From the sequence record MZ501067: a stretch of DNA of 64,000 nt. One strand, written 5' to 3'. The stretch comes from Escherichia phage FriedrichZschokke. The notes under the pieces are model-generated. The model worked only from the letters and a program-made list of their open reading frames with translations. It did no database searches and was not told where the DNA came from. Shown here one piece after another: positions 8,899 to 61,399 of the stretch; the stretch's first letter is position 1, and each line of letters opens with the position of its first letter. A program made the position numbers and the translations under genes.

Positions 8899-8976
8899 TT
8901 TCACCTCTTAGCTCAATTCATAGATCTATTATATCATAATATTTGAAGATCTATCTTAAAGCATAGAGGATATCAG

Positions 8977-9246
8977 TTATCTAAGTAAACAGTATGCTTG
9001 GAATACTTTTTCCATCATCTTTTTAAATTCATGAATATCTATATAATGACTAGTTAGATCAGCATGATATAAAAAGTCTAAAAACTTTTCATGTGTACTA
9101 ACATATTCACTTTCATTTAATTCAGAAACATGGCTTTCCCAATATCCAACACCAGTCTTATTTGGGAAAAATGAAATTTTCATGTATTGGTCAACATAGA
9201 AAATGCCATAATTTTCAATAGTAATAGAAATATTAATAAATTTCAT
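8977..9246 (-). CDS. Hypothetical protein
   Basis: 89 aa ORF. Confidence 0.45.
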   Translation of the reverse strand: MKFINISITIENYGIFYVDQYMKISFFPNKTGVGYWESHVSELNESEYVSTHEKFLDFLYHADLTSHYIDIHEFKKMMEKVFQAYCLLR

Positions 9247-9458
9247 ACATTCATCAACTTAGCCGCTTCAAGAGCTGCATCTAGTGAATCAAATTGGTCA
9301 ACGTATTCAATCAATTCGCCATAATTGGCATATAACCACCATTGGCTAAATTCATACTCAAGGATGAATCCGTTTCCTTCAATTTGAGTTAAACCAATGC
9401 CATTTGTATTTACTTCATATCCAGCAAGACGCAAATCGTTAATAAGAGCTTCGTTCAT
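9243..9458 (-). CDS. Hypothetical protein
   Basis: 71 aa ORF, coupled to neighbours by overlapping stop/start. Confidence 0.45.
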   Translation of the reverse strand: MNEALINDLRLAGYEVNTNGIGLTQIEGNGFILEYEFSQWWLYANYGELIEYVDQFDSLDAALEAAKLMNV

Positions 9459-9460
9459 AA

Positions 9461-9787
9461 TTATACCTTAGTAATTTTCAGGTCTGCAAATTTTTTCTTG
9501 CGTTGATTTTTCATGCGACGAATAGTTTTATCGGAAATTTCATGCTTTTGATAAGCTTTAGATTCTACACCAAAAGCTTTAACATCAAATTCTGACAAGA
9601 TATATTGAACCAACAATTCACGGACAGTATTGCGTCCAATCTTCTGATCATTCTGTTTCATCGTCTGATGAAGCTCTTTTTCCCATTTATCCAAACTTTG
9701 AGGAGTTACAATATCGCCTTTTTCTAGCAAAGAAACTACTTTATCATATGCGTAAGAATTGATGGCGTTTTTAATTTGAATAGTCAT
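9461..9787 (-). CDS. Hypothetical protein
   Basis: 108 aa ORF. Confidence 0.5.
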   Translation of the reverse strand: MTIQIKNAINSYAYDKVVSLLEKGDIVTPQSLDKWEKELHQTMKQNDQKIGRNTVRELLVQYILSEFDVKAFGVESKAYQKHEISDKTIRRMKNQRKKKFADLKITKV

Positions 9788-9825
9788 ACATTATCCTCAA
9801 TTGCGTTAAAATTTTATTATCCAAA

Positions 9826-9841
9826 AAGGGCCGAAGCCCTT
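9826..9841 (-). terminator. Rho-independent terminator with UUCG tetraloop
   Basis: AAGGGCCGAAGCCCTT followed on the minus strand by UUUUU. Confidence 0.6.
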
Positions 9842-10040
9842 AGCTAAACTTTTTGGCACCCTTCCAGCCTTCATACATCATTGCGGCTGATATTAATATT
9901 GCTCCTGAACAACTTGAATATTTGTGATTCCAAAACCAGTTTAGAAAAACTTCGTCATCAATACCTTGTGCTATCATATTTTCAAAGAACTGACGACGAG
10001 CTTCGGCAATTCGCTGCGATAATTTAGATTCAGGATTCAT
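9840..10040 (-). CDS. Hypothetical protein
   Basis: 66 aa ORF. Confidence 0.45.
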   Translation of the reverse strand: MNPESKLSQRIAEARRQFFENMIAQGIDDEVFLNWFWNHKYSSCSGAILISAAMMYEGWKGAKKFS

Positions 10041-16376: not shown

Positions 16377-16680
16377 TTTCTTCTCGGTCAAATCGGTGTT
16401 TACAATGGCGACATTTATAACGAAGATTACTAGTCTGCCAATGGACCAATTGCACCTGTTCAGTACCGCATTCAGGGCAATTAGGAACGTTTTTAGAAGC
16501 TCTTTCACGTCGTTCAACCATAGCCATAATAGCGTCCCAGGCCGGCGGTTTAAAATCTAAATCGTCGCAGCCGTGAATCTTTCCACGCATTTCCATATCA
16601 TCTTCCTCACCAGCCATAATAATTTTAATTAAACTGGAATTACTTGAAGCTGCAATGTCTTCTAATAAACGCTTTTTCAT
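16363..16680 (-). CDS. Zinc-ribbon protein (nrdC.2 position)
   Basis: 105 aa ORF with CPECG...CRHCKH four-Cys motif. Confidence 0.5.
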
Positions 16681-17606
16681 TTCAATACCTCAATAGCATT
16701 ACGTAAACCATTTGCTTTTGCATTAAGAGCTTTTAACAATTTGGTGTGTTCTGCAATTTGGGCTTCAACTTCAATCAAACGGGCATTGAGATATTCACGT
16801 TCTTCACTCAGATTATCAACCTTTTCTACTTTAGGCTCTTTTACAACTGTCTTATATGTATTAGGGTTCTTCAGTTTAATTAGAATGCGTGAACTGTATA
16901 ACATTGAACCATTATCTTCGGTTTCGTCATACATTTCCACTACGTCCATAATTTTTAACATCATGCGGAGTTTATAAGACAACGAACGAATAGTTTTGTT
17001 GTGCTTATTAATTTCTTTAGCTGTCATGGTGCCAAGATTACGTGAGTAATAATAAGGAACCTGGATATTAATTAATACTGATGAACCACCTGGCTTGTGT
17101 GTTACTTCATCAGCAATAACCCAGTCCTTAACATGAACTGTATTTGTACGGTCATCGCCCGCGGTAAATAGTTTGCGAGCATGCTTAAAAAGCATATTCA
17201 CTTGGTCATTGAATTGACAAGCAAATTTATCAGCAAATTTAGTTTCAGGAATGGTAGAAAACCAATCAGCCAAATGAGTCTTTTTAACATCATTAACAAT
17301 AGTAAATTCAACAAAATCGGTTATAGATGTCTCAGATTTAATGAAGCTCGGCTTCATAAAGTTTTTAATGTTCTCATGAGCTACAGTAGAAGATAACATA
17401 CGAGAACGTTTAAACCATTCAAGCAAATTGCCTAACGAATGAGAATAAGCGTTTTGAGTATCTTTACAGATATGATTTTCCCGACCAACATATTGAAGGA
17501 AATCACGAAGAATATTATTGATTACTGCTCTGTGCCCGATCTGATAATTACGGTGTTTAGTAATAAGACTGTCAAAATAATCAATATAATGTTTACGAGT
17601 TTTCAT
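16677..17606 (-). CDS. Hypothetical protein with C-terminal coiled coil (paralogous family member 1)
   Basis: 309 aa ORF; C-terminal heptad-rich segment. Confidence 0.6.
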   Translation of the reverse strand: MKTRKHYIDYFDSLITKHRNYQIGHRAVINNILRDFLQYVGRENHICKDTQNAYSHSLGNLLEWFKRSRMLSSTVAHENIKNFMKPSFIKSETSITDFVEFTIVNDVKKTHLADWFSTIPETKFADKFACQFNDQVNMLFKHARKLFTAGDDRTNTVHVKDWVIADEVTHKPGGSSVLINIQVPYYYSRNLGTMTAKEINKHNKTIRSLSYKLRMMLKIMDVVEMYDETEDNGSMLYSSRILIKLKNPNTYKTVVKEPKVEKVDNLSEEREYLNARLIEVEAQIAEHTKLLKALNAKANGLRNAIEVLK

Positions 17607-17660
17607 GTTCTTCTCACTTGGTTAATGATTTATACTCCGAGCCATCCTTGGCTTTAAATT

Positions 17661-18689
17661 TTACTTAATTAACTGTAAAGCCTGTTCTAAACGATCAAGA
17701 CGATTAACAGATTCTTCCCAAATCCTTTTAGCCTGCTCATATTCTTTCTGCGCTTTATTAGAAATTTCTAGAACTTCTTTATAAGCTTTTTCTAATGCAA
17801 TAACTTCTGGACGAATTTCTACCGGTTCAGGTGAATCATCAAGATTATTCATTAGTTCCTCAAGGGTAGTTTCTTCTTTAGGAGTATTCACAATTTCCTC
17901 ACATTTTTGTTGATAAATTTCTTTATCAGTAGGTGAATAAGCACATTTCACTTCACGAAGACTAATTACAATTTTATATCCTTCCCATCCGCATATATTC
18001 TTAAAAGGATATGTATGAATATTTTCTACCGTTTCCATACAAAGTAATGCAGTCTCTAACTGACGAGTTATAGTGCTAGCAATTGAGAAAAATTTATTAA
18101 TATTCTTTTGGTTAGCGTTTGGTGTAAAAAATCCATAATTCACAAAAATAGCTACTTTATTTTCATCAAGATCATATTCTTTTACGATAATCATATCAGA
18201 AGCCAAAGGATGAATTTGACGATAATCGCCATAACATAATTTAGAAGCTGATTTTAGAATTTGTCCTTTGAAAAGTCTGAAATTACTAATCCAACGGCGA
18301 GTAAAAATATTCTCAGGGTCTTCTTTATTAAGATGATAAGAATTAACATCACCGAACCAATTATATCCTACTACATCTTTGGTTCGTTTAATTTCTTTCC
18401 CAAAATTACCAAGAATATCCCGATTAACCAAATATGAAAGAAGACGAGACTCTTTAAAGGTTTTCTTGATAACATCTTTATCTACACGGCTAGAAATTTT
18501 ACGAATTTCATGAATAAATTTAGCAGAAGAAACAATACTTGCATCAACACTATTGAGCCACTGATTGATAATAGAAAGAACGCTATTTTGACCAAACATC
18601 GGTATAGCTTTATCATCAATAACTCTATTGAATGATTTAATATATTCGTTGCGAGTCATATTAATCTCCTCAGTAGAAAGTAAGAACAT
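17661..18689 (-). CDS. Hypothetical protein with C-terminal coiled coil (family member 2)
   Basis: 342 aa ORF. Confidence 0.6.
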   Translation of the reverse strand: MFLLSTEEINMTRNEYIKSFNRVIDDKAIPMFGQNSVLSIINQWLNSVDASIVSSAKFIHEIRKISSRVDKDVIKKTFKESRLLSYLVNRDILGNFGKEIKRTKDVVGYNWFGDVNSYHLNKEDPENIFTRRWISNFRLFKGQILKSASKLCYGDYRQIHPLASDMIIVKEYDLDENKVAIFVNYGFFTPNANQKNINKFFSIASTITRQLETALLCMETVENIHTYPFKNICGWEGYKIVISLREVKCAYSPTDKEIYQQKCEEIVNTPKEETTLEELMNNLDDSPEPVEIRPEVIALEKAYKEVLEISNKAQKEYEQAKRIWEESVNRLDRLEQALQLIK

Positions 18690-18716
18690 TATACCACATC
18701 CTTGTGGCGAAGTAAA
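18688..18716 (-). promoter_or_regulatory. T4-type early promoter with a hairpin in the spacer
   Basis: Minus strand TTTACT-N17-TATAAT; spacer contains CCACAAGGATGTGG. Confidence 0.45.
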
Positions 18717-19736
18717 CTAGTTTAGTGCATTTAGTGCGTTGTTCAATTTAGAACGTTGCTTCGTGAGATTTTTTACTTTTTCTTGAGCTTTTTCTAGCAT
18801 CTTTTCAGCTTCTAACGCTTCATTAGTTGCTTTAACGAGTTCATCATCTACTGCCTTGATAGACTTCTCAATCGCATCCGCGTGCCATTTTTCAACAGGT
18901 TTAAGACTAGGATTTTCAACAGGAAGAAAATTCACTTTATTAAATTTCCATGCATCTTTATTACCTGAACTATACATCCAAAATTTAGGATCGTTTGATG
19001 AGCAATTAGATAAATTTAAGTTATCTTGTACTTCCTGCTTTTTCTCTTGCGTGACTTCGTCTTTTCTCAAAAAATCATATTTAAATGAAACGATCATATC
19101 AAGTTCATATGTTGTTGTATGTTCCCAATTTCGCTCAAAACGAGGTAAAATCTTAGATTGAACAGCAGCAACAACATCCATATACTTAAATGCTTCTGTC
19201 AGCTGTGATTTAAGACATTCACAAATTGAACGAGAATTTTTAGTATTAGGTTTAAAGCTAATTCGTGCAGTTCTATTATTTTCTTTAGATGGTCTTACTT
19301 CCATTTGAAGAGTATAACCATCAAATTTCAGATTCTTTAAGTTAATATCAGAGCCTTTTAATCGACTAGCAGTAGACAAAATTTGCTTTAATTGTTTACG
19401 AAATAGAGCAATAAATCTCCATTCAATACGATAATGATTTGGATTAAAAAATCCTGTTGATAAATCAACCTTACTCTGACCAACGCCTTGAACAAATAGA
19501 GGATTTTTATAATCAATAGTTTTACAGAAATCGGTGAGCTGCTCACGAGCAGTCATTTGTGTAATATATCCCGCTTTACTAAAATGACGTAACCATTCAC
19601 TGCTATTCATATACTTAAAGTGAATGGAACTATTAACTCTATCAGGGTCTAAATTATTTTGGTACAAAAATGTCATAACATTACGGGTATAGCTGGCATT
19701 ACGAACCATATCTTCAATTTGAGAACGAGTTTTCAT
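18717..19736 (-). CDS. Hypothetical protein with C-terminal coiled coil (family member 3)
   Basis: 339 aa ORF. Confidence 0.6.
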   Translation of the reverse strand: MKTRSQIEDMVRNASYTRNVMTFLYQNNLDPDRVNSSIHFKYMNSSEWLRHFSKAGYITQMTAREQLTDFCKTIDYKNPLFVQGVGQSKVDLSTGFFNPNHYRIEWRFIALFRKQLKQILSTASRLKGSDINLKNLKFDGYTLQMEVRPSKENNRTARISFKPNTKNSRSICECLKSQLTEAFKYMDVVAAVQSKILPRFERNWEHTTTYELDMIVSFKYDFLRKDEVTQEKKQEVQDNLNLSNCSSNDPKFWMYSSGNKDAWKFNKVNFLPVENPSLKPVEKWHADAIEKSIKAVDDELVKATNEALEAEKMLEKAQEKVKNLTKQRSKLNNALNALN

Positions 19737-19744
19737 AGTGTTCC

Positions 19745-20653
19745 TTAAGATTTAAGTAAATCAACAATTTTAATTAATTTTTCACGCTCAGATTTAGCTT
19801 TACTACTCAATCCAGATAGTCTGAAAATTTCATCGTCATACTGTTGAATAGAAATATTCAGCTCTTCAATTTGCTTATTAAAATAATCAATTTGCTCAGA
19901 ATGTTTTTCATTACTGCGAACTGGTACAGGTTTTGTAGGCAATTTAGTTAAACTGGATTCATCCGGGCGATAAATTAAAATACAACTTGAACCAATCGGG
20001 CATTTAGCACCAGACACATATTCTAATGTTCCGGCTTCTTTTAAAACTTCAAAAGCTAAACAGAGATGATGCCCCATATTAACATAATCTGTAGAGCGAG
20101 CTCTGACGTAATAATCATCGCCGCGAATACTAAATTTAAAGCATTTAAGGTCTTCTGTATTATTGGTCTTAAAAATCATTTGTTTATCTAGACCTTTAGC
20201 TAATCGAGCGCCTAATGCTAATAATCGTCGTTGATTTTCCCACAAATCTGCGATCATTTGGTCAAATGATAATTTCGGCATTAGTCGACCGTAAAGATCA
20301 TAGCCTTTATTATAATTGCGAAGAATTTCACTCGCGTTAATACGAGACAATGCTCCAATTTTATTAAGGGCTTTCATGATGCGATTAGATAAACCCATTC
20401 CAGACCCGTTTGTTCGTTGTAAATGTTTATCTAATCCAAACCCAATATCAACTTTAAATTTATCTAAAATTTCAGCATGAACATCTCTGTCAATAACATT
20501 CAAATCCAAAGTTGGGTTAAATCTATGAAAAAATTTATCTGGCTCTCCACGACGAAGTACAGTCCATTCATTCAATTTTTTATTAACTAAAGATTTAATT
20601 ACTGCATTGACATTATTAATTACTACTGACATATTTTCCTCACTCAATTTCAA
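19745..20653 (-). CDS. Hypothetical protein with C-terminal coiled coil (family member 4)
   Basis: 302 aa ORF. Confidence 0.6.
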   Translation of the reverse strand: MKLSEENMSVVINNVNAVIKSLVNKKLNEWTVLRRGEPDKFFHRFNPTLDLNVIDRDVHAEILDKFKVDIGFGLDKHLQRTNGSGMGLSNRIMKALNKIGALSRINASEILRNYNKGYDLYGRLMPKLSFDQMIADLWENQRRLLALGARLAKGLDKQMIFKTNNTEDLKCFKFSIRGDDYYVRARSTDYVNMGHHLCLAFEVLKEAGTLEYVSGAKCPIGSSCILIYRPDESSLTKLPTKPVPVRSNEKHSEQIDYFNKQIEELNISIQQYDDEIFRLSGLSSKAKSEREKLIKIVDLLKS

Positions 20654-21102: not shown

Positions 21103-21630
21103 TTATGCGAGTACCGTCTTTAACCGTTCTTCAAACTTCCGAAGAGTATTTTGGCGTTCAGCTCTTTGCTTTTTGTAAGTTTCAATACGCTCTGAAATGA
21201 GAGTGTATCGTTCATTTACTGATTCTTTCATAAAATCAGGAATTTCACGAGAAGCTTTAATCTCGTCAAATTTATCAATAACAGCTTGCTCTTCAGCAAT
21301 TAAGTTATCATACATCAAAATATCTTTCTTGATGAACTCAATATCTTCTTGAGTTACACGAGATAACTTAGATGCTTTATCCTTTTTGTACTGTTCATTA
21401 GTATCACGAGACCAGTGTAATGTACGATTTTTATTCGTATTCTTATAAATTTCTACAATACCAATCTCATCAATAATAACGATCCAATTCCAACGGGATT
21501 TGTAAATTTGTCCTCCATCAACTGTGATTTCACCTCCGATTGAGATGTCATTAAAGAACTTGCTTTGTGCTTCAGATTTAAATTTACCATCGTTGTAATT
21601 TACCAAGTTGAAAATATCTTTAGCGTTCAT
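21103..21630 (-). CDS. Hypothetical protein
   Basis: 175 aa ORF. Confidence 0.55.
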   Translation of the reverse strand: MNAKDIFNLVNYNDGKFKSEAQSKFFNDISIGGEITVDGGQIYKSRWNWIVIIDEIGIVEIYKNTNKNRTLHWSRDTNEQYKKDKASKLSRVTQEDIEFIKKDILMYDNLIAEEQAVIDKFDEIKASREIPDFMKESVNERYTLISERIETYKKQRAERQNTLRKFEERLKTVLA

Positions 21631-23439: not shown

Positions 23440-24452
23440 TCATTTATAATAACTTCGGTGGTTTTCAAGATAGACCTTCTCAAGGAAGTCATCCCAGAAA
23501 CTCATGTCTACTGTTTTAGGCATACCGTTCTTAGAAGCTTCAGTAGATGCTGCTTCTACTTGATCGACCACATCTTCCAAAAACTCTTGAACTGTTTTAA
23601 ATGGATGTTTACCCAACTTCACGTCGAGAATAAATGGAGCATCTTGAAGTGGATAGACTAAGTCACCAGTTTTGTAAATTTCCAATAGTTGGAGTCCACC
23701 ACGACAAGCATGACTTAGTGCTTTCCAATCAATGCCTTCATTGGCTTCGGCCTTACGAGCACGTTCACCGTATTCAGCATCTAATTTGTTCAGTGACTGC
23801 TTAAGCTCAATAAGAGAAAGCGTTGTCTGATATTTACGACCCAACACAGTGTAGAACGTTTGTGGGCCTGTTTTCTCATGATTATGGAACACCCATTCAC
23901 AGAATTCGTTTTCTGGAAGACGATGCTTAATATCTTCAACTTTAGTACGACGCTGCTTAATGGAACCGTCTTCTTGGTAATCAACCATTGCTCAGGGATT
24001 TGATTAACTACTTTCAATACATCACGTAATGCAGCCAAACGAGAACCCTTGACGCCGTATTTAGAAGCTTGCTTGCGGACATATCCTAAATATGATTTCA
24101 TGTTAGTCGTATAAAAACGAGAACGGTTGTCTTGAATAAACTTCCACACATCAGGCAAATCGGATTTAACCACTAGTTCAGGTGGAGTGTGAAGCATATC
24201 CAACGCTACAGTTTCACCATCTGCTGCTAATTTAAAGAAATATTTAAGACTGTATAGTTCATGGTCAATATCATCTTTAGTGTTTTTAGATGATGTATTG
24301 TTAGTATTTTTACTCATATGCTCTTTAACATTTCCGATAAGAATATCACGAGCAGGAGGAACAAAGATTTCTTTAAAATCTACATCAGATTCTGGGGTAG
24401 AAGTTCCATAAAGATGACTACCAAAATAGCTTTTCATTACTGTTTTCATCAT
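23440..24452 (-). pseudogene. Pol-beta-superfamily nucleotidyltransferase-fold protein, apparently split by a -1 frameshift near 23986-23995 (~150 aa N-terminal part plus 182 aa C-terminal part)
   Basis: N-terminal G[S]x10DxD motif YFGSHLYGTSTPESDVDF; after residue ~155 the upstream frame becomes low-complexity while the overlapping frame (ORF 23440..23988) is protein-like; TGA in the downstream frame lies 6 nt before its ATG. Confidence 0.45.
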
Positions 24453-58359: not shown

Positions 58360-59939
58360 GTAATAATACATATCAACACGTTTCTAATGAATCTCGTTAT
58401 GTAAAATTTGATCCTACCGATACGAATTTTCCACCAGAGATTACTGATGTTCAGGCTGCTATAGCAGCCATTTCTCCTGCTGGCGTAAATGGAGTTCCTG
58501 ATGCATCGTCAACAACAAAGGGAATTTTATTTCTTGCCACTGAACAGGAAGTTATAGATGGAACTAATAATACCAAAGCAGTTACACCGGCAACGTTGGC
58601 AACAAGATTATCATATCCAAATGCTACCGAAGAAGTTTATGGACTTACACGTTATTCAACAGACGATGAAGCTGTAGCTGGTGTTAATAATGAATCATCT
58701 ATAACTCCGGCTAAATTTACTACAGCAATTAATCACATTTTTGATACACGAATTTCTTCTGAAAGTTCACTTGGCGTTATTAAGTTATCATCTCTACCGC
58801 AAGCATTAGCTGGTGCAGATGATACTACTGCAATGACTCCATTAAAAACGCAGCAGTTAGCTATTAAATTAATTGCGCAAATTGCTCCTTCTGAAACCAC
58901 AGCTACCGAATCGGACCAAGGTGTTGTTCAATTAGCAACAGTAGCGCAGGTTCGTCAGGGAACTTTAAGAGAAGGCTATGCAATTTCTCCTTATACGTTT
59001 ATGAATTCATCTGCTACTGAAGAATATAAAGGCGTAATTAAATTAGGAACACAGTCAGAAGTTAACTCGAATAATGCTTCTGTTGCTGTTACTGGTGCAA
59101 CTCTTAATGGTCGTGGTTCTACAACGTCAATGAGAGGCGTAGTTAAATTAACTACAACTGCCGGCTCACAGAGTGGAGGTGATGCTTCATCAGCACTAGC
59201 TTGGAATGCTGACGTTATCCATCAAAGAGGCGGTCAAACTATTAATGGAACACTCCGCATTAATAACACGCTTACAATAGCTTCAGGTGGAGCAAATATT
59301 ACCGGAACAGTTAACATGACCGGTGGTTATATTCAAGGTAAGCGTGTCGTAACACAAAATGAAATTGATAGAACTATTCCTGTCGGAGCTATTATGATGT
59401 GGGCCGCTGATAGTCTTCCTAGTGATGCTTGGCGTTTTTGCCACGGTGGAACTGTTTCAGCGTCAGATTGTCCATTATATGCTTCTAGAATTGGAACAAG
59501 ATATGGCGGAAGTTCATCAAATCCTGGATTACCTGATATGCGTGGTCTTTTTGTTCGCGGCTCTGGTCGTGGCTCTCACTTAACAAATCCAAATGTTAAT
59601 GGTAATGACCAGTTTGGTAAGCCTAGATTAGGTGTAGGTTGTACTGGTGGATATGTTGGTGAAGTACAGAAACAACAGATGTCTTATCATAAACATGCTG
59701 GCGGATTTGGTGAGCATGATGATTCTGGAGCATTCGGTAATACCCGTAGATCAAATTTTGTTGGTACACGTAAAGGACTTGACTGGGATAACCGTTCATA
59801 CTTCACCAATGACGGATACGAAATTGACCCGGCATCACAACGAAATTCCAAATATACATTAAATCGTCCTGAATTAATTGGAAATGAAACACGTCCATGG
59901 AACATTTCTTTAAACTACATAATTAAGGTAAAAGAATGA
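58356..59939 (+). CDS. 12: Short tail fiber protein gp12
   Basis: 527 aa ORF, synteny and length as T4 gp12. Confidence 0.93.
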
Positions 59940-61399
59940 CAGATATTGTACTGAATGACTTACCATTCGTTGACGGCCCTCCTGCGGAGGGCCAGAGCCG
60001 CATTTCCTGGATTAAAAACGGCGAAGAAATATTAGGAGCTGACACGCAGTATGGAAGCGAAGGTTCAATGAATAGACCTACAGTTTCTGTACTAAGAAAT
60101 GTTGAAGTTCTTGATAAAAACATTGGAATACTTAAAACATCTTTAGAAACCGCAAATAGTGATATTAAAACCATCCAGGGCATCTTAGATGTATCTGGTG
60201 ATATAGAAGCTTTAGCACAAATAAGTATCAATAAAAAGGATATTTCTGACCTCAAAACGCTAACCAGTGAACATACAGAAATATTAAATGGAACTAATAG
60301 TACAGTTGACAACATTCTTGCTGATATTGGTCCATTTAACTCCGAGGCCAACTCTGTATACAGAACGATCAGAAATGATTTACTGTGGATAAAGCGTGAA
60401 CTTGGACAATACACTGGTCAAGATATTAATGGTCTTCCTGTTGTAGGAAATCCTAGTAGTGGAATGAAGCATCGCATTATTAATAATACTGATGTCATTA
60501 CTTCACAGGGAATACGTTTAAGTGAATTAGAAACAAAATTTATTGAATCTGATGTAGGTTCTTTGACCATTGAAGTTGGTAATCTTCGCGAAGAGCTTGG
60601 ACCGAAACCACCGTCTTTTTCACAAAACATTTACAGCCGCTTAAATGAAATTGACACTAAACAGACAACAGTTGAGTCTGACATTAGTGCTATTAAGACC
60701 TCAATAGGATATCCAGGAAATAATTCGATTATCACGAGTGTTAATACAAACACTGATAATATTGCATCTATTAATTTAGAGCTAAATCAAAGTGGAGGTA
60801 TTAAACAGCGTTTAACCGTTATTGAAACTTCTATTGGATCAGACGATATTCCTTCGAGTATTAAAGGCCAAATCAAAGATAATACAACTTCAATCGAATC
60901 TTTAAATGGAATCGTCGGTGAAAACACTTCATCTGGTTTAAGAGCGAATGTTTCGTGGTTAAACCAAATTGTTGGAACTGATTCTAGCGGTGGACAACCT
61001 TCTCCTCCTGGGTCTCTTTTAAACCGAGTTTCTACAATTGAAACTTCTGTTTCAGGCTTGAATAACGATGTTCAAAACCTACAAGTAGAGATTGGTAATA
61101 ACAGCACAGGAATTAAAGGGCAAGTTGTAGCGTTAAATACTTTAGTAAATGGAACTAATCCAAACGGTTCAACTGTTGAAGAACGCGGATTAACCAATTC
61201 AATAAAAGCTAACGAAACTAACATTGCATCAGTTACACAAGAAGTGAATACAGCTAAAGGCAATATATCTTCTTTACAAGACGATGTTCAAGCTCTCCAA
61301 GAAGCCGGTTATATTCCTGAAGCTCCAAAAGATGGCCAAGCTTACGTTCGTAAAGACGGCGAATGGGTATTACTTTCTACCTTTTTATCACCAGCATAA
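59936..61399 (+). CDS. wac: Fibritin (whisker antigen control) Wac
   Basis: 487 aa ORF with segmented coiled coil and C-terminal foldon-like [27 protein letters not shown]. Confidence 0.95.

What the first reader, a model, noticed from the sequence alone, without database searches (positions are those of the whole stretch)
16677..20653. Four consecutive 300-340 aa ORFs sharing a C-terminal coiled-coil architecture
ORFs 16677..17606, 17661..18689, 18717..19736 and 19745..20653 are similar in size, each ends in a 50-70 residue heptad-rich helical segment (for example ...[42 protein letters not shown]), and they are arranged in tandem. They look like a family of paralogs with divergent N-terminal domains and a common oligomerisation tail. 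No enzymatic motif is visible. These appear to fall at the T4 nrdC.3 to nrdC.6 positions.
Basis: seen in the sequence. Interest (0 to 1): 0.4.

Follow-up and report, generated by a model that had tools for sequence, protein, structure and literature searches.

The report
Four paralogous T4 anti-defence-type genes
The four tandem genes are the phage T4 genes nrdC.3 to nrdC.6, and they turn out to be very old, fast-evolving copies of one T4-like-phage-specific protein, one copy of which (NrdC.5) is already known to disarm the bacterial Dsr1 immune protein, so the other three are good candidates for new immune-evasion factors.

Summary
The window is a Tequatrovirus. The four ORFs are the orthologues of T4 nrdC.3, nrdC.4, nrdC.5 and nrdC.6.

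- **Observation:** it holds with corrections. Two start codons are placed too far upstream (nrdC.4 starts at 18659, nrdC.6 at 20632). The C-terminal heptad signal is strong in three proteins and weaker in nrdC.4.
- **Homology:** plain BLASTP links only nrdC.3 and nrdC.4. With the tails removed, iterative profile searches through bridging homologues from other T4-like phages join all four. hhalign gives 95-96% probability, E 3e-8 to 6e-9, and reversed or shuffled controls fail.
- **Structure:** AlphaFold2 models of nrdC.5 and nrdC.6 show the same order of elements: helical N-domain, alpha-hairpin-alpha-hairpin core, linker, C-terminal helix. Both models hit the same uncharacterised proteins of other T4-like phages. 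No solved structure matches.
- **Distribution:** the superfamily is tiny, 33 clusters among 1.84 billion proteins, and the named members checked are all from T4-like phages.
- **Function:** T4 NrdC.5 is published as a counter-defence factor against Dsr1. The neighbours gp49.2 and NrdC.1 inhibit OLD and Septu.
- **Best reading:** a paralogue battery of host-defence antagonists. The function of the other three copies and the role of the tail are inferred, not shown.

The parts
16677..17606 (-). nrdC.3 orthologue (309 aa), of the 'window-type' allele; superfamily member
   Evidence: The ORF is and the T4 synteny. It matches phrog_1435 at E 4e-115. It is only 61% identical to T4 NrdC.3 but 94-97% identical to other Tequatrovirus contigs. 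hhalign against nrdC.4 gives 97.5% probability, E 7e-12.
16680..16811 (-). C-terminal heptad helix of nrdC.3 (about residues 266-309)
   Evidence: Its heptad score of 0.78 is above the 99th percentile. Reading the sequence shows an unbroken 3-4 spacing of L, L, V, I, H, L, L, A, L, I, L.
17661..18659 (-). nrdC.4 orthologue (332 aa; corrected start)
   Evidence: It matches phrog_1435 at E 4e-167 and is 95% identical to T4 NrdC.4. The start is corrected from the SD sequence, the promoter and the homologue alignment.
17664..17822 (-). C-terminal helical tail of nrdC.4 (weaker heptad pattern)
   Evidence: Its heptad score is 0.54, between the 95th and 99th percentiles. It aligns to the other tails in alignment A6 and ends ...LEQALQLIK.
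18688..18716 (-). Sigma-70-type (T4 early-like) promoter TTTACT-17-TGgTATAAT in front of nrdC.4
   Evidence: It matches the consensus at 10 of 12 positions and has an extended -10. The sequence is shown. It is a consensus match only; promoter activity was not tested.
18717..19736 (-). nrdC.5 orthologue (339 aa); DUF7235; orthologue of the published T4 anti-Dsr1 factor
   Evidence: It matches Pfam PF23882 at 410.9 bits against a cut-off of 30. It is 91% identical to T4 NrdC.5. The function is reported in PMC9391042.
19083..19427 (-). Core of nrdC.5: alpha, beta-hairpin, alpha, beta-hairpin (residues 104-218)
   Evidence: In the AlphaFold2 model, pLDDT across this stretch is about 47-83 by 10-residue block. 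The region aligns with nrdC.4 residues 57-235 in hhalign.
18720..18896 (-). C-terminal 58-residue helix of nrdC.5 (residues 281-338), preceded by the LKPVEKWH motif
   Evidence: AlphaFold2 predicts the helix with pLDDT about 68-87. Its heptad score of 0.88 ranks first of 69 ORFs.
19745..20632 (-). nrdC.6 orthologue (295 aa; corrected start)
   Evidence: It matches phrog_2257 at E 2e-152, and its homologues carry PF26899. The AlphaFold2 model has pLDDT 78.5 and pTM 0.65. hhalign against the rest of the superfamily gives 95.1% probability, E 3e-8.
19970..20266 (-). Core of nrdC.6: helix pair, beta-hairpin, helix, beta-hairpin (residues 123-221)
   Evidence: The elements are read from the AlphaFold2 secondary structure. 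Its secondary structure agrees 69% with that of nrdC.5 on alignment A6, against 42.5 +/- 5% for circular shifts.
19748..19909 (-). C-terminal helices of nrdC.6 (residues 242-271 and 277-294), preceded by TKPVPVRS
   Evidence: The two helices are in the AlphaFold2 model. The heptad score is 0.74.

Best explanation
**What it is.** The four genes are the Tequatrovirus orthologues of T4 nrdC.3, nrdC.4, nrdC.5 and nrdC.6. They are ancient tandem duplicates of one protein type. As far as I could check, that type occurs only in T4-like (Straboviridae-type) phages.

**Architecture.** Each protein has a helical N-terminal domain, then an alpha / beta-hairpin / alpha / beta-hairpin core, a variable and probably disordered linker that ends in a P-x-K-P-V/I motif, and a 45-60-residue amphipathic C-terminal helix.

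**Expression and dispensability.** All four T4 genes are dispensable on a laboratory host. The eLife paper calls nrdC.5 an early gene. A near-consensus sigma-70-type promoter precedes nrdC.4.

**Proposed function.** One copy, NrdC.5, is an experimentally shown counter-defence factor against the SIR2-domain immune protein Dsr1. I propose that the array is a battery of host-defence antagonists. In this reading the fast-diverging N-terminal and core part of each copy binds a different host immune protein or variant and blocks its activation. The conserved tail would hold the protein in a dimer or higher oligomer, or contribute to target binding.

**Shown.**
- Orthology to the T4 genes.
- Common ancestry of the four proteins.
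- Shared order of predicted structural elements in nrdC.5 and nrdC.6.
- Narrow phage-restricted distribution.
- Rapid divergence and copy-number variation.

**From the literature.**
- The anti-Dsr1 activity of NrdC.5.
- Dispensability of all four genes.

**Inferred.**
- Anti-defence roles for nrdC.3, nrdC.4 and nrdC.6.
- Inhibition by direct binding.
- Oligomerisation through the tail.
For: **Identity and synteny.**

**Homology by sequence.**
- nrdC.3 and nrdC.4 fall in the same PHROG. hhalign between them gives 97.5% probability, E 7e-12.
- I ran a tail-less iterative HMM search over 364 ORFs from the window and 22 fetched loci, plus 364 reversed decoys, seeded with nrdC.4.
- It recruited nrdC.3, Klebsiella phage F48, Mineola and Roth34, then nrdC.5 (E about 1e-6), then nrdC.6 (first hit E 5e-5), then Moonvirus CF1 and an Acinetobacter phage protein.
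- It returned no decoy even at E < 10 and no unrelated ORF.
- Tail-less hhalign: nrdC.6 family versus everything else, 95.1% probability, E 3e-8. nrdC.5 family versus nrdC.3/4 plus bridges, 95.9%, E 6e-9.
- Controls: reversed alignments gave E 0.3-0.7, and column-shuffled alignments scored 9-18 against 59.6.
- An independent MAFFT alignment lines up the same motifs.

**Structure.**
- The AlphaFold2 models of nrdC.5 and nrdC.6 have the same order of elements. Their secondary structures agree 69% on the alignment, against 42.5 +/- 5% for circular shifts.
- Both models hit the same BFVD entries from Erwinia phage Cronus and Serratia phage CBH8.
- The CBH8/CHI14 protein A0A1Z1LY96 is also found by the sequence profile, at E 1.5e-6 in 1.84 billion proteins.
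- The nrdC.6 model hits a 326-aa Mineola protein. A 326-aa gene sits next to nrdC.2, nrdC.1 and nrdC in Mineola, and it is recruited by the nrdC.4 profile. I could not compare the two sequences directly, so the identity of the BFVD entry with that gene is inferred from size and phage.

**Function and context.**
- Expressing T4 nrdC.5 restores plating on MG1655 carrying ECOR17 dsr1 (PMC9391042).
- Neighbouring gp49.2 inhibits OLD (PMC13096335). NrdC.1 inhibits Septu (bioRxiv 2025.11.20.689424).
- All four T4 genes are non-essential.

**Arms-race signature.**
- Against other Tequatrovirus loci, nrdC.3 is 61-97% identical, nrdC.4 90-95% and nrdC.5 89-94%. The flanking nrdC, endonuclease VII, nrdC.8 and nrdC.10 are 98-100%.
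- Copy number runs from 1 to 4 across genera. Deletions, fusions and split genes occur.
Against: - Only NrdC.5 has any functional data, and its mechanism is unknown.
- The HIDEN-SEQ comparison I could read showed no significant fitness effect for insertions in nrdC.3 to nrdC.6.
- The nrdC.5 model is poor overall (mean pLDDT 54). No model was made for nrdC.3 or nrdC.4.
- The link to nrdC.6 depends on bridging sequences and on an iterative search in a small hand-collected database. Direct nrdC.5 versus nrdC.6 hhalign is not significant (E 0.017-0.16).
- Foldseek TM-scores to the bridging proteins are modest, 0.16-0.5.
- Oligomerisation of the tail was not tested, and the nrdC.4 tail has a weak heptad pattern.
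- Sitting near anti-defence genes is only circumstantial evidence of function.
Confidence: 0.6

Rival explanations
1. The four proteins are unrelated, apart from nrdC.3 and nrdC.4. They merely share a generic coiled-coil-like C-terminus and similar length by chance, or by convergent selection for an oligomerisation tail.
For: - BLASTP all-against-all is significant only for nrdC.3 versus nrdC.4.
- Pfam and PHROGs keep them in three separate families.
- hhalign of nrdC.5 versus nrdC.6 is not significant.
Against: - With the tails removed, profile searches still join all four. They recruit no reversed decoy and no unrelated ORF.
- hhalign gives 95-96% probability, and reversed and shuffled controls fail.
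- The independent AlphaFold2 models have the same element order and hit the same bridging proteins.
- The collinear motifs line up in an independent MAFFT alignment: N-terminal KTR.EY (not in nrdC.6), SR..A...L.NF.K, F...L..A.RL..G, and P.KPVE.
Confidence: 0.08
2. The family is real, but its members work together as one machine, for example a hetero-oligomer held by the C-terminal helices. In that case they have a single role, either anti-Dsr1 or a housekeeping accessory role in infection, rather than separate targets.
For: - The tails resemble each other in register to the C-terminus. Tail-only hhalign gives nrdC.3 versus nrdC.5 E 9e-5, nrdC.3 versus nrdC.6 E 2e-3, and nrdC.4 versus nrdC.5 E 2.5e-3, against 0.08-0.6 for reversed controls.
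- The genes are adjacent, on one strand, and separated by gaps of only 8-54 nt.
Against: - Copy number varies from 1 to 4 between genera.
- Single copies are lost or fused within Tequatrovirus: ECO07P1 lacks nrdC.4, and P0056 is a nrdC.5-nrdC.3 fusion. This is unexpected for obligate partners.
- nrdC.5 expressed alone from a plasmid was enough to rescue a deletion phage on dsr1 cells. However, I could not establish which other nrdC genes that phage still carried.
Confidence: 0.15
3. The family has a role unrelated to host immunity. For example, it could bind nucleic acid or act as a regulator during early infection, and the Dsr1 effect of NrdC.5 would then be indirect.
For: - nrdC.3 residues 30-86 give sub-threshold matches to the N-terminal SAM-like (core-binding) domain of tyrosine recombinases: Pfam E 0.11, NCBIfam XerD/XerC E 0.004-0.03.
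- The mechanism of NrdC.5 is unpublished.
Against: - Those matches are far below the curated cut-offs (13-16 bits against 22-330) and are seen only in nrdC.3.
- The genes are non-essential, fast-evolving and variably present. They sit among proven anti-defence genes.
- No DNA-binding or enzymatic domain is detected, and no PDB fold matches.
Confidence: 0.12

Closest known systems
T4 NrdC.5 (DUF7235, Pfam PF23882), counter-defence factor against Dsr1 (Srikant, Guegler and Laub, eLife 2022; PMC9391042)
   Same: ORF 18717-19736 is its direct orthologue. It is 91% identical, sits in the same position, and scores 411 bits against Pfam. The other three ORFs are remote paralogues of it with the same domain order.
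   Different: nrdC.3, nrdC.4 and nrdC.6 do not match the DUF7235 model and share under 20% identity with it. No activity against Dsr1 or anything else has been reported for them. The mechanism of NrdC.5 itself is unknown.
DSAD1, the SPbeta-type phage inhibitor of DSR2 (PMC10973363, PMC11087589, PMC11290490)
   Same: It is a functional analogue. It is a phage protein without enzymatic motifs that neutralises a SIR2-domain NADase defence protein. According to those papers it counteracts DSR2 activation by the tail tube protein.
   Different: - There is no detectable sequence similarity. Profile searches against all PDB chains returned no match at E <= 1 other than an SMC protein, FabG, a tape measure protein, a designed protein, TTC29 and a DNA glycosylase.
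- No DSR2 or DSAD1 entry appears among the top 50 Foldseek PDB matches of the nrdC.6 model.
- The target (Dsr1, not DSR2), the phage lineage and the architecture all differ.
Other T4 anti-defence genes in the same genome segment: gp49.2 (anti-OLD; PMC13096335) and NrdC.1 (anti-Septu; bioRxiv 2025.11.20.689424)
   Same: They are small, non-essential accessory genes in the same nrdC-proximal region. This supports the idea of an anti-defence neighbourhood.
   Different: They are unrelated in sequence and size, at about 80-106 aa against about 300-340 aa. They are not part of the tandem paralogue array.
Uncharacterised 300-375-aa proteins next to nrdC in other T4-like phages (Klebsiella F48, Mineola and Roth34, Citrobacter CF1, Serratia CHI14/CBH8 and Muldoon/PS2, Erwinia Cronus, Acinetobacter Acj9, Acj61 and AB-Navy71)
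   Same: They have the same size and, where fetched, the same locus. Most of those read end in a similar helical tail. They are found by the superfamily profile and/or by Foldseek with the two models, and they act as the bridges that join the four T4 families.
   Different: - There are usually one to three copies per genome rather than four.
- All are uncharacterised.
- Sequence identity to the window proteins is 10-20%.

Membership tests
T4 NrdC.5 / DUF7235 (PF23882) | Match to the Pfam model above its gathering score | tested here: met
   ORF 18717-19736 scores 410.9 bits against a cut-off of 30 over its full length. The other three ORFs give no hit to this model, so only this ORF is a member.
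T4 NrdC.5 / DUF7235 (PF23882) | Orthology to T4 nrdC.5 (position and identity) | tested here: met
   It is 91% identical to T4/T4T NrdC.5 and lies between nrdC.6 and nrdC.4, as in T4.
T4 NrdC.5 / DUF7235 (PF23882) | Neutralises Dsr1 (restores plating on dsr1-carrying cells) | not testable with these tools
   This is shown only for the T4 protein (PMC9391042). Here it is inferred from 91% identity.
nrdC.3/nrdC.4 family (phrog_1435; PF26897 in newer Pfam) | Full-length match to the family profile | tested here: met
   nrdC.3 matches at E 3.8e-115 and nrdC.4 at E 4.2e-167 to phrog_1435. The nrdC.3-derived part of fusion protein P0056 carries PF26897.
nrdC.6 family (phrog_2257; PF26899 in newer Pfam) | Full-length match to the family profile | tested here: met
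   It matches phrog_2257 at E 2.4e-152. Every homologue returned carries PF26899. That model is absent from the local Pfam copy, so the window protein itself shows no Pfam hit.
Proposed NrdC.3-6 superfamily (defined here) | Significant profile-profile similarity outside the C-terminal tail, with failing controls | tested here: met
   - nrdC.6 versus the rest: 95.1% probability, E 3e-8.
- nrdC.5 versus nrdC.3/4 plus bridges: 95.9% probability, E 6e-9.
- Reversed controls gave E 0.3-0.7, and column shuffles scored 9-18 against 59.6.
- The iterative search recruited no decoy.
Proposed NrdC.3-6 superfamily (defined here) | Same fold in the N-terminal and core region | tested here: inconclusive
   - The nrdC.5 and nrdC.6 models show the same order of secondary-structure elements. 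They agree 69% on the alignment, against 42.5% for shifted controls.
- Both models hit the same bridging proteins.
- The nrdC.5 model is of low confidence (pLDDT 54).
- No direct superposition was possible, and nrdC.3 and nrdC.4 were not modelled.
Coiled-coil oligomerisation domain | Uninterrupted heptad repeat of at least 4-5 heptads with hydrophobic a and d positions | tested here: met
   This is met for nrdC.3, nrdC.5 and nrdC.6, with scores of 0.74-0.88, above the 99th percentile. It is weak for nrdC.4, at 0.54.
Coiled-coil oligomerisation domain | Actual self-association | not testable with these tools
   Only monomer predictions were available. In the nrdC.5 model the terminal helix is separated from the core by a 60-residue unstructured linker. 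That would be compatible with a need for a partner, but I did not inspect its contacts.
Thioredoxin/glutaredoxin (the label these ORFs carry in many GenBank records) | Thioredoxin-fold domain match and CxxC active site | tested here: not met
   No thioredoxin or glutaredoxin family appears in the Pfam or NCBIfam hits. None of the four translations contains a CxxC motif. The label is propagated from the gene name nrdC.
DSAD1-type inhibitors of DSR2 | Sequence or fold similarity to DSAD1 | tested here: not met
   Profile searches of all three families against PDB sequences returned no DSAD1 match at E <= 1. Foldseek of the nrdC.6 model against PDB gave a best E of 0.028, to designed proteins.

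The most novel reading that the evidence does not exclude
The array would be a diversified battery built on a previously undescribed fold that is specific to T4-like phages. Each paralogue would neutralise a different host immune sensor or effector, with NrdC.5 acting on Dsr1. The conserved C-terminal helix would be the common device that makes the inhibitors multivalent or lets them co-assemble. The family would then be a general, evolvable inhibitor scaffold across T4-like phages, and three new anti-defence proteins would sit in the best-studied phage genome.
Probability: 0.3. Interest if true: 0.7.

Novelty: new member of a known kind. Interest (0 to 1): 0.5.

Why it matters
T4 is the reference lytic phage, yet most of its accessory early genes have no function. 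This analysis shows that nrdC.3, nrdC.4 and nrdC.6 are remote paralogues of the only characterised gene in the block, the anti-Dsr1 factor NrdC.5. Three anonymous ORFs become specific, testable candidates for counter-defence factors.

The databases currently list three separate families. They collapse into one small superfamily whose named members are all from T4-like phages, with no solved structural relative.

The work also gives a concrete handle on how NrdC.5 might work: a divergent recognition domain plus a conserved helix. The family shows how tandem duplication and rapid divergence may build host-range repertoires in virulent phages.

Tried and rejected
- **Plain BLASTP all-against-all.** Only nrdC.3 versus nrdC.4 reached significance. 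This is insufficient for deciding on the other pairs.
- **hhalign with shallow family alignments.** nrdC.4 versus nrdC.5 gave E 0.011 and the other pairs were not significant. Deeper alignments gave nrdC.5 versus nrdC.3/4 53% probability, nrdC.6 versus nrdC.3/4 E 0.019, and nrdC.5 versus nrdC.6 nothing. Bridging sequences were needed.
- **The search for homologous proteins with a single protein.** It returned only relatives of at least 81% identity. Alignment queries were needed to obtain the diverged members.
- **The search for related loci with nrdC.4.** It found only 5 close loci.
- **First crude coiled-coil score.** It was uninformative, so I replaced it with a heptad-occupancy score compared against all ORFs of the window.
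- **Is nrdC.8 (175 aa, similar tail) a truncated member?** No significant profile similarity was found, either for the tail alone or for the whole protein. I did not include it.
- **Solved-structure relatives.** Foldseek of the nrdC.6 model against PDB gave a best E of 0.028, to de novo designs, H-NOX proteins and ribosome recycling factor, all with TM below 0.3. I rejected these as chance. Sequence profiles against PDB gave nothing.
- **Tail-completion and tail-terminator hits of the low-confidence nrdC.5 model.** These had E about 1e-2. I treated them as generic alpha/beta similarity from a poor model.
- **Tyrosine-recombinase SAM-like hits of nrdC.3.** They are far below the cut-offs and I rejected them as evidence.
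- **Literature.** I found no paper on nrdC.3, nrdC.4 or nrdC.6 function, on the NrdC.5 mechanism, or on DUF7235, PF26897 or PF26899.

Full report
**1. What the region is**

The 3,977-bp stretch is 99.7% identical to Escherichia phage vB_EcoM_11B_SA_NWU. It is 80-99% identical to 656 phage records, almost all of them T4-like phages of enterobacteria. Gene order around it is nrdD, endonuclease VII, pin, 49.x, nrdC, nrdC.1, nrdC.2, then the four ORFs, then nrdC.7 to nrdC.11. This matches the T4 reference annotation, so the ORFs are nrdC.3, nrdC.4, nrdC.5 and nrdC.6.

**2. Checking the observation**

The ORFs exist as described, but two starts need correcting.

- **nrdC.4.** The ATG at 18689 is the last base triplet of TATAATG, inside a near-consensus sigma-70-type promoter at 18716..18688 (TTTACT, 17 nt, TGgTATAAT).
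  - The next ATG, at 18659, has a GAGGAG Shine-Dalgarno sequence.
  - It also matches the T4 annotation and the N-termini of homologues, which begin MTRNEY.
- **nrdC.6.** The ATG at 20632 has GAGGAA upstream and matches the family N-terminus MSxxIN. The T4 annotation used in the HIDEN-SEQ supplement has a gene of equivalent length.

For the tails, I ranked all 69 non-overlapping ORFs of at least 100 aa in the window by heptad occupancy in the last 64 residues.

| Protein | Heptad score | Rank |
|---|---|---|
| nrdC.5 | 0.88 | 1st |
| 487-aa ORF at 59936-61399 | 0.80 | 2nd |
| nrdC.3 | 0.78 | 3rd |
| nrdC.8 | 0.76 | 4th |
| nrdC.6 | 0.74 | 5th |
| nrdC.4 | 0.54 | 8th |

The 99th percentile of all 35-residue windows is 0.68 and the 95th is 0.46. 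So the tail signal is strong in three proteins and weaker in nrdC.4.

**3. Are they paralogues?**

*Simple comparisons.* BLASTP finds only nrdC.3 versus nrdC.4, at 27% identity over 160 residues. PHROGs puts those two in one family (phrog_1435). nrdC.5 goes in phrog_2351 (Pfam DUF7235) and nrdC.6 in phrog_2257. Newer Pfam labels on homologues are PF26897, PF23882 and PF26899. The databases therefore treat them as three unrelated families.

*Collecting bridging sequences.* I fetched the nrdC neighbourhoods of Gaprivervirus, Dhakavirus, Mosigvirus, Moonvirus, Jiaodavirus, Marfavirus, Muldoonvirus, a Pseudotevenvirus, Gualtarvirus and an Acinetobacter phage. Most of these carry one to three proteins of 280-370 aa just upstream of nrdC. 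Most of those proteins end in a similar helical tail.

*Iterative profile search.* To exclude coiled-coil composition as the cause, I removed the last 65 residues from every profile sequence. I then ran an iterative HMM search over 364 ORFs plus their 364 reversed copies. Starting from nrdC.4, the order of recruitment was:

1. nrdC.3 and the Klebsiella F48 protein.
2. The Mineola and Roth34 proteins.
3. nrdC.5, at E about 1e-6, aligned over residues 46-193.
4. Gaprivervirus nrdC.6, at E 5e-5, followed by all nrdC.6 proteins.
5. The Moonvirus CF1 protein, the diverged nrdC.5-like proteins and an Acinetobacter protein.

No reversed decoy appeared even at E < 10, and no unrelated ORF was recruited.

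*Profile-profile comparison.* I re-aligned the groups separately, still without tails.

| Comparison | hhalign result |
|---|---|
| nrdC.6 family vs everything else | 95.1% probability, E 3e-8, 139 columns |
| nrdC.5 family vs nrdC.3/4 plus bridges | 95.9% probability, E 6e-9 |
| Reversed alignments (control) | E 0.3-0.7 |
| 20 column-shuffled versions (control) | scores 9-18, against 59.6 |

*Shared motifs.* An independent MAFFT alignment of window proteins and database homologues lines up the same collinear motifs:
- an N-terminal KTR.EY (not present in nrdC.6);
- SR..A...L.NF.K;
- F...L..A.RL..G;
- a helix of the type L..AL..M..VE;
- P.KPVE just before the tail;
- a terminal R.KL..A..LK.

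*Tail-only comparison.* Tail-only profiles are also more alike than reversed controls, but more weakly, at E 9e-5 to 0.07.

**4. Structure**

- **nrdC.6 model.** Mean pLDDT is 78.5 and pTM 0.65. It has five N-terminal helices, a helix pair, a beta-hairpin, a helix, a second beta-hairpin, a low-confidence linker and two terminal helices.
- **nrdC.5 model.** It is poor overall (pLDDT 54) but has the same order of elements. Confidence is about 47-83 by 10-residue block in the core, and there is a 58-residue terminal helix.
- **Agreement.** Mapped on the sequence alignment, the two independent secondary-structure strings agree at 69% of positions. Circular shifts give 42.5 +/- 5%, with a maximum of 54%.

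*Foldseek against predicted viral structures.*
- The nrdC.6 model finds its own family first. It then finds 300-375-aa uncharacterised proteins of Enterobacter, Pectobacterium, Acinetobacter, Klebsiella (Mineola), Yersinia, Erwinia (Cronus) and Serratia (CBH8) phages.
- Those hits have E 1e-6 to 1e-3 and TM mostly 0.3-0.5; CBH8 is 0.17.
- The nrdC.5 model has Cronus and CBH8 as its two best hits.
- The CBH8/CHI14 protein is also found by the sequence profile of the superfamily, at E 1.5e-6 in a library of 1.84 billion proteins.
- A 326-aa Mineola gene lies next to nrdC.2-like, nrdC.1-like and nrdC genes, and it is one of the sequence bridges. It is probably the 326-aa Mineola entry hit by Foldseek.

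*Solved structures.* Nothing in the PDB resembles the nrdC.6 model (best E 0.028, TM below 0.3). No family profile matches any PDB sequence.

I could not model nrdC.3 or nrdC.4, or superpose models directly. The shared fold is therefore well supported but not proven.

**5. Distribution and evolution**

The superfamily profile finds only 33 clusters (at 50% identity) among 1.84 billion proteins. About two-thirds of them are 280-350 aa long and the rest are short fragments. I checked 20 of the clusters. Apart from a few bacterial-assembly entries of the kind that phage DNA produces, every named member comes from a T4-like phage, and the long contigs are about 165-180 kb.

Within Tequatrovirus, identity to the window proteins was as follows.

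| Gene | Identity to window protein |
|---|---|
| nrdC.3 | 61% (two allelic types) to 97% |
| nrdC.4 | 90-95% |
| nrdC.5 | 89-94% |
| nrdC.6 | 94-98% |
| Flanking nrdC, endonuclease VII, nrdC.8, nrdC.10 | 98-100% |

Copy number also varies:
- ECO07P1 lacks nrdC.4.
- One metagenomic phage carries an in-frame nrdC.5-nrdC.3 fusion.
- Other genomes have split copies.
- Dhakavirus and Gaprivervirus lack nrdC.3, and Mosigvirus lacks nrdC.4.
- Several genera have a single copy.

**6. Function**

- Srikant, Guegler and Laub (eLife 2022, PMC9391042) found that an evolved T4 deletion clone could not plate on ECOR17 because of the SIR2-domain defence gene dsr1. Expressing T4 nrdC.5 alone restored plating on MG1655 carrying dsr1.
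- The window protein is 91% identical to T4 NrdC.5, so it very probably has the same activity.
- In the same genome segment, gp49.2 inhibits OLD (PMC13096335) and NrdC.1 inhibits Septu (bioRxiv 2025.11.20.689424).
- The supplement of the latter study lists T4 nrdC.3 to nrdC.6 as non-essential on a laboratory host.
- No enzymatic or known binding domain is detectable.

The best-supported reading is that the array is a set of duplicated, rapidly diverging antagonists of host immunity. A variable recognition part (N-domain and core) would bind the host target. The conserved amphipathic tail would oligomerise or help binding.

The closest functional analogy is DSAD1, which binds DSR2. There is no sequence or fold similarity to it, so this is a statement about how the proteins may work, not about family membership.

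The anti-defence roles of nrdC.3, nrdC.4 and nrdC.6, direct binding, and tail-mediated oligomerisation are all inferences.

**7. Verdict**

- **Observation:** real, with corrected starts and a weaker tail signal in nrdC.4.
- **Interpretation:** paralogues, yes. The idea of different N-domains joined to a shared tail should be replaced by one diverged protein type that is homologous along its whole length.
- **Prior knowledge:** the genes themselves are known T4 ORFs and one has a published function.
- **New here:** the unification of three database families into one small superfamily seen only in T4-like phages among the members I could name, with no solved structural relative. This nominates three further counter-defence candidates.
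- **Interest:** moderate.

Noticed in passing
window 23440-24452 (minus strand): nrdC.11 (nucleotidyltransferase, one 336-aa ORF in T4) is split here into two overlapping ORFs, 23790-24452 (220 aa) and 23440-23988 (182 aa). The first 157 residues and the last 181 residues each match T4 at about 97%. This is either a frameshift or a sequencing error.
   Followed up: partly
window 18688-18716 (minus strand): A near-consensus early-type promoter (TTTACT, 17 nt, TGgTATAAT) lies directly after the nrdC.5 stop codon. nrdC.4 and the genes downstream of it may therefore have their own promoter. The mechanical ORF start at 18689 lies inside its -10 box.
   Followed up: partly
P0056 (299 aa, on a 167-kb contig); compare window 16677-19736: This is a natural in-frame fusion of the middle of nrdC.5 to the C-terminal two-thirds of nrdC.3, with junction ...KFNKVN|MLFKHARK.... 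It deletes nrdC.4. The array is evidently prone to deletion between paralogues.
   Followed up: partly
window 16677-17606 versus L001 8934-9860 (T4): nrdC.3 occurs as two allelic types that are only 61% identical in protein sequence, a window type and a T4 type. Genes a few kilobases away are 98-100% identical. This suggests allele replacement by recombination, or strong diversifying selection.
   Followed up: partly
window 21103-21630 (minus strand), nrdC.8: This 175-aa protein, two genes upstream of the array, also ends in a heptad-rich helix (score 0.76, 4th of 69 ORFs). It shows no significant profile similarity to nrdC.3 to nrdC.6. A 175-aa Klebsiella phage KPV15 protein appeared weakly in both Foldseek lists.
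   Followed up: partly
GenBank records matching window 16677-20653: Many public phage records annotate all of nrdC.1 to nrdC.11, including these four ORFs, as 'thioredoxin'. The label is propagated from the gene name. None of the four has a thioredoxin domain or a CxxC motif.
   Followed up: yes
window about 17349-17519 (nrdC.3 residues 30-86): There are sub-threshold matches to the N-terminal SAM-like (core-binding) domain of tyrosine recombinases: Pfam PF02899 at E 0.11, and NCBIfam XerD/XerC models at E 0.004-0.03. They are far below the curated cut-offs and are probably chance.
   Followed up: no
L012 (Escherichia phage ECO07P1), L006, L008 (Shigella phage SP18): Array members show loss or decay in related phages. 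ECO07P1 has no nrdC.4. One IMG/VR genome has nrdC.4 split into two ORFs. SP18 has its nrdC.5-like gene split into gp093 and gp092.
   Followed up: partly
L022 (Acinetobacter phage AB-Navy71) 3031-4062, 4661-5668, 8913-9920: Three proteins of 335-343 aa lie upstream of nrdC in this distant T4-like phage. Only the one at 8913-9920 was recruited by the superfamily profile (E 2.6e-5). The other two may be further diverged copies, which would point to an independent expansion.
   Followed up: no
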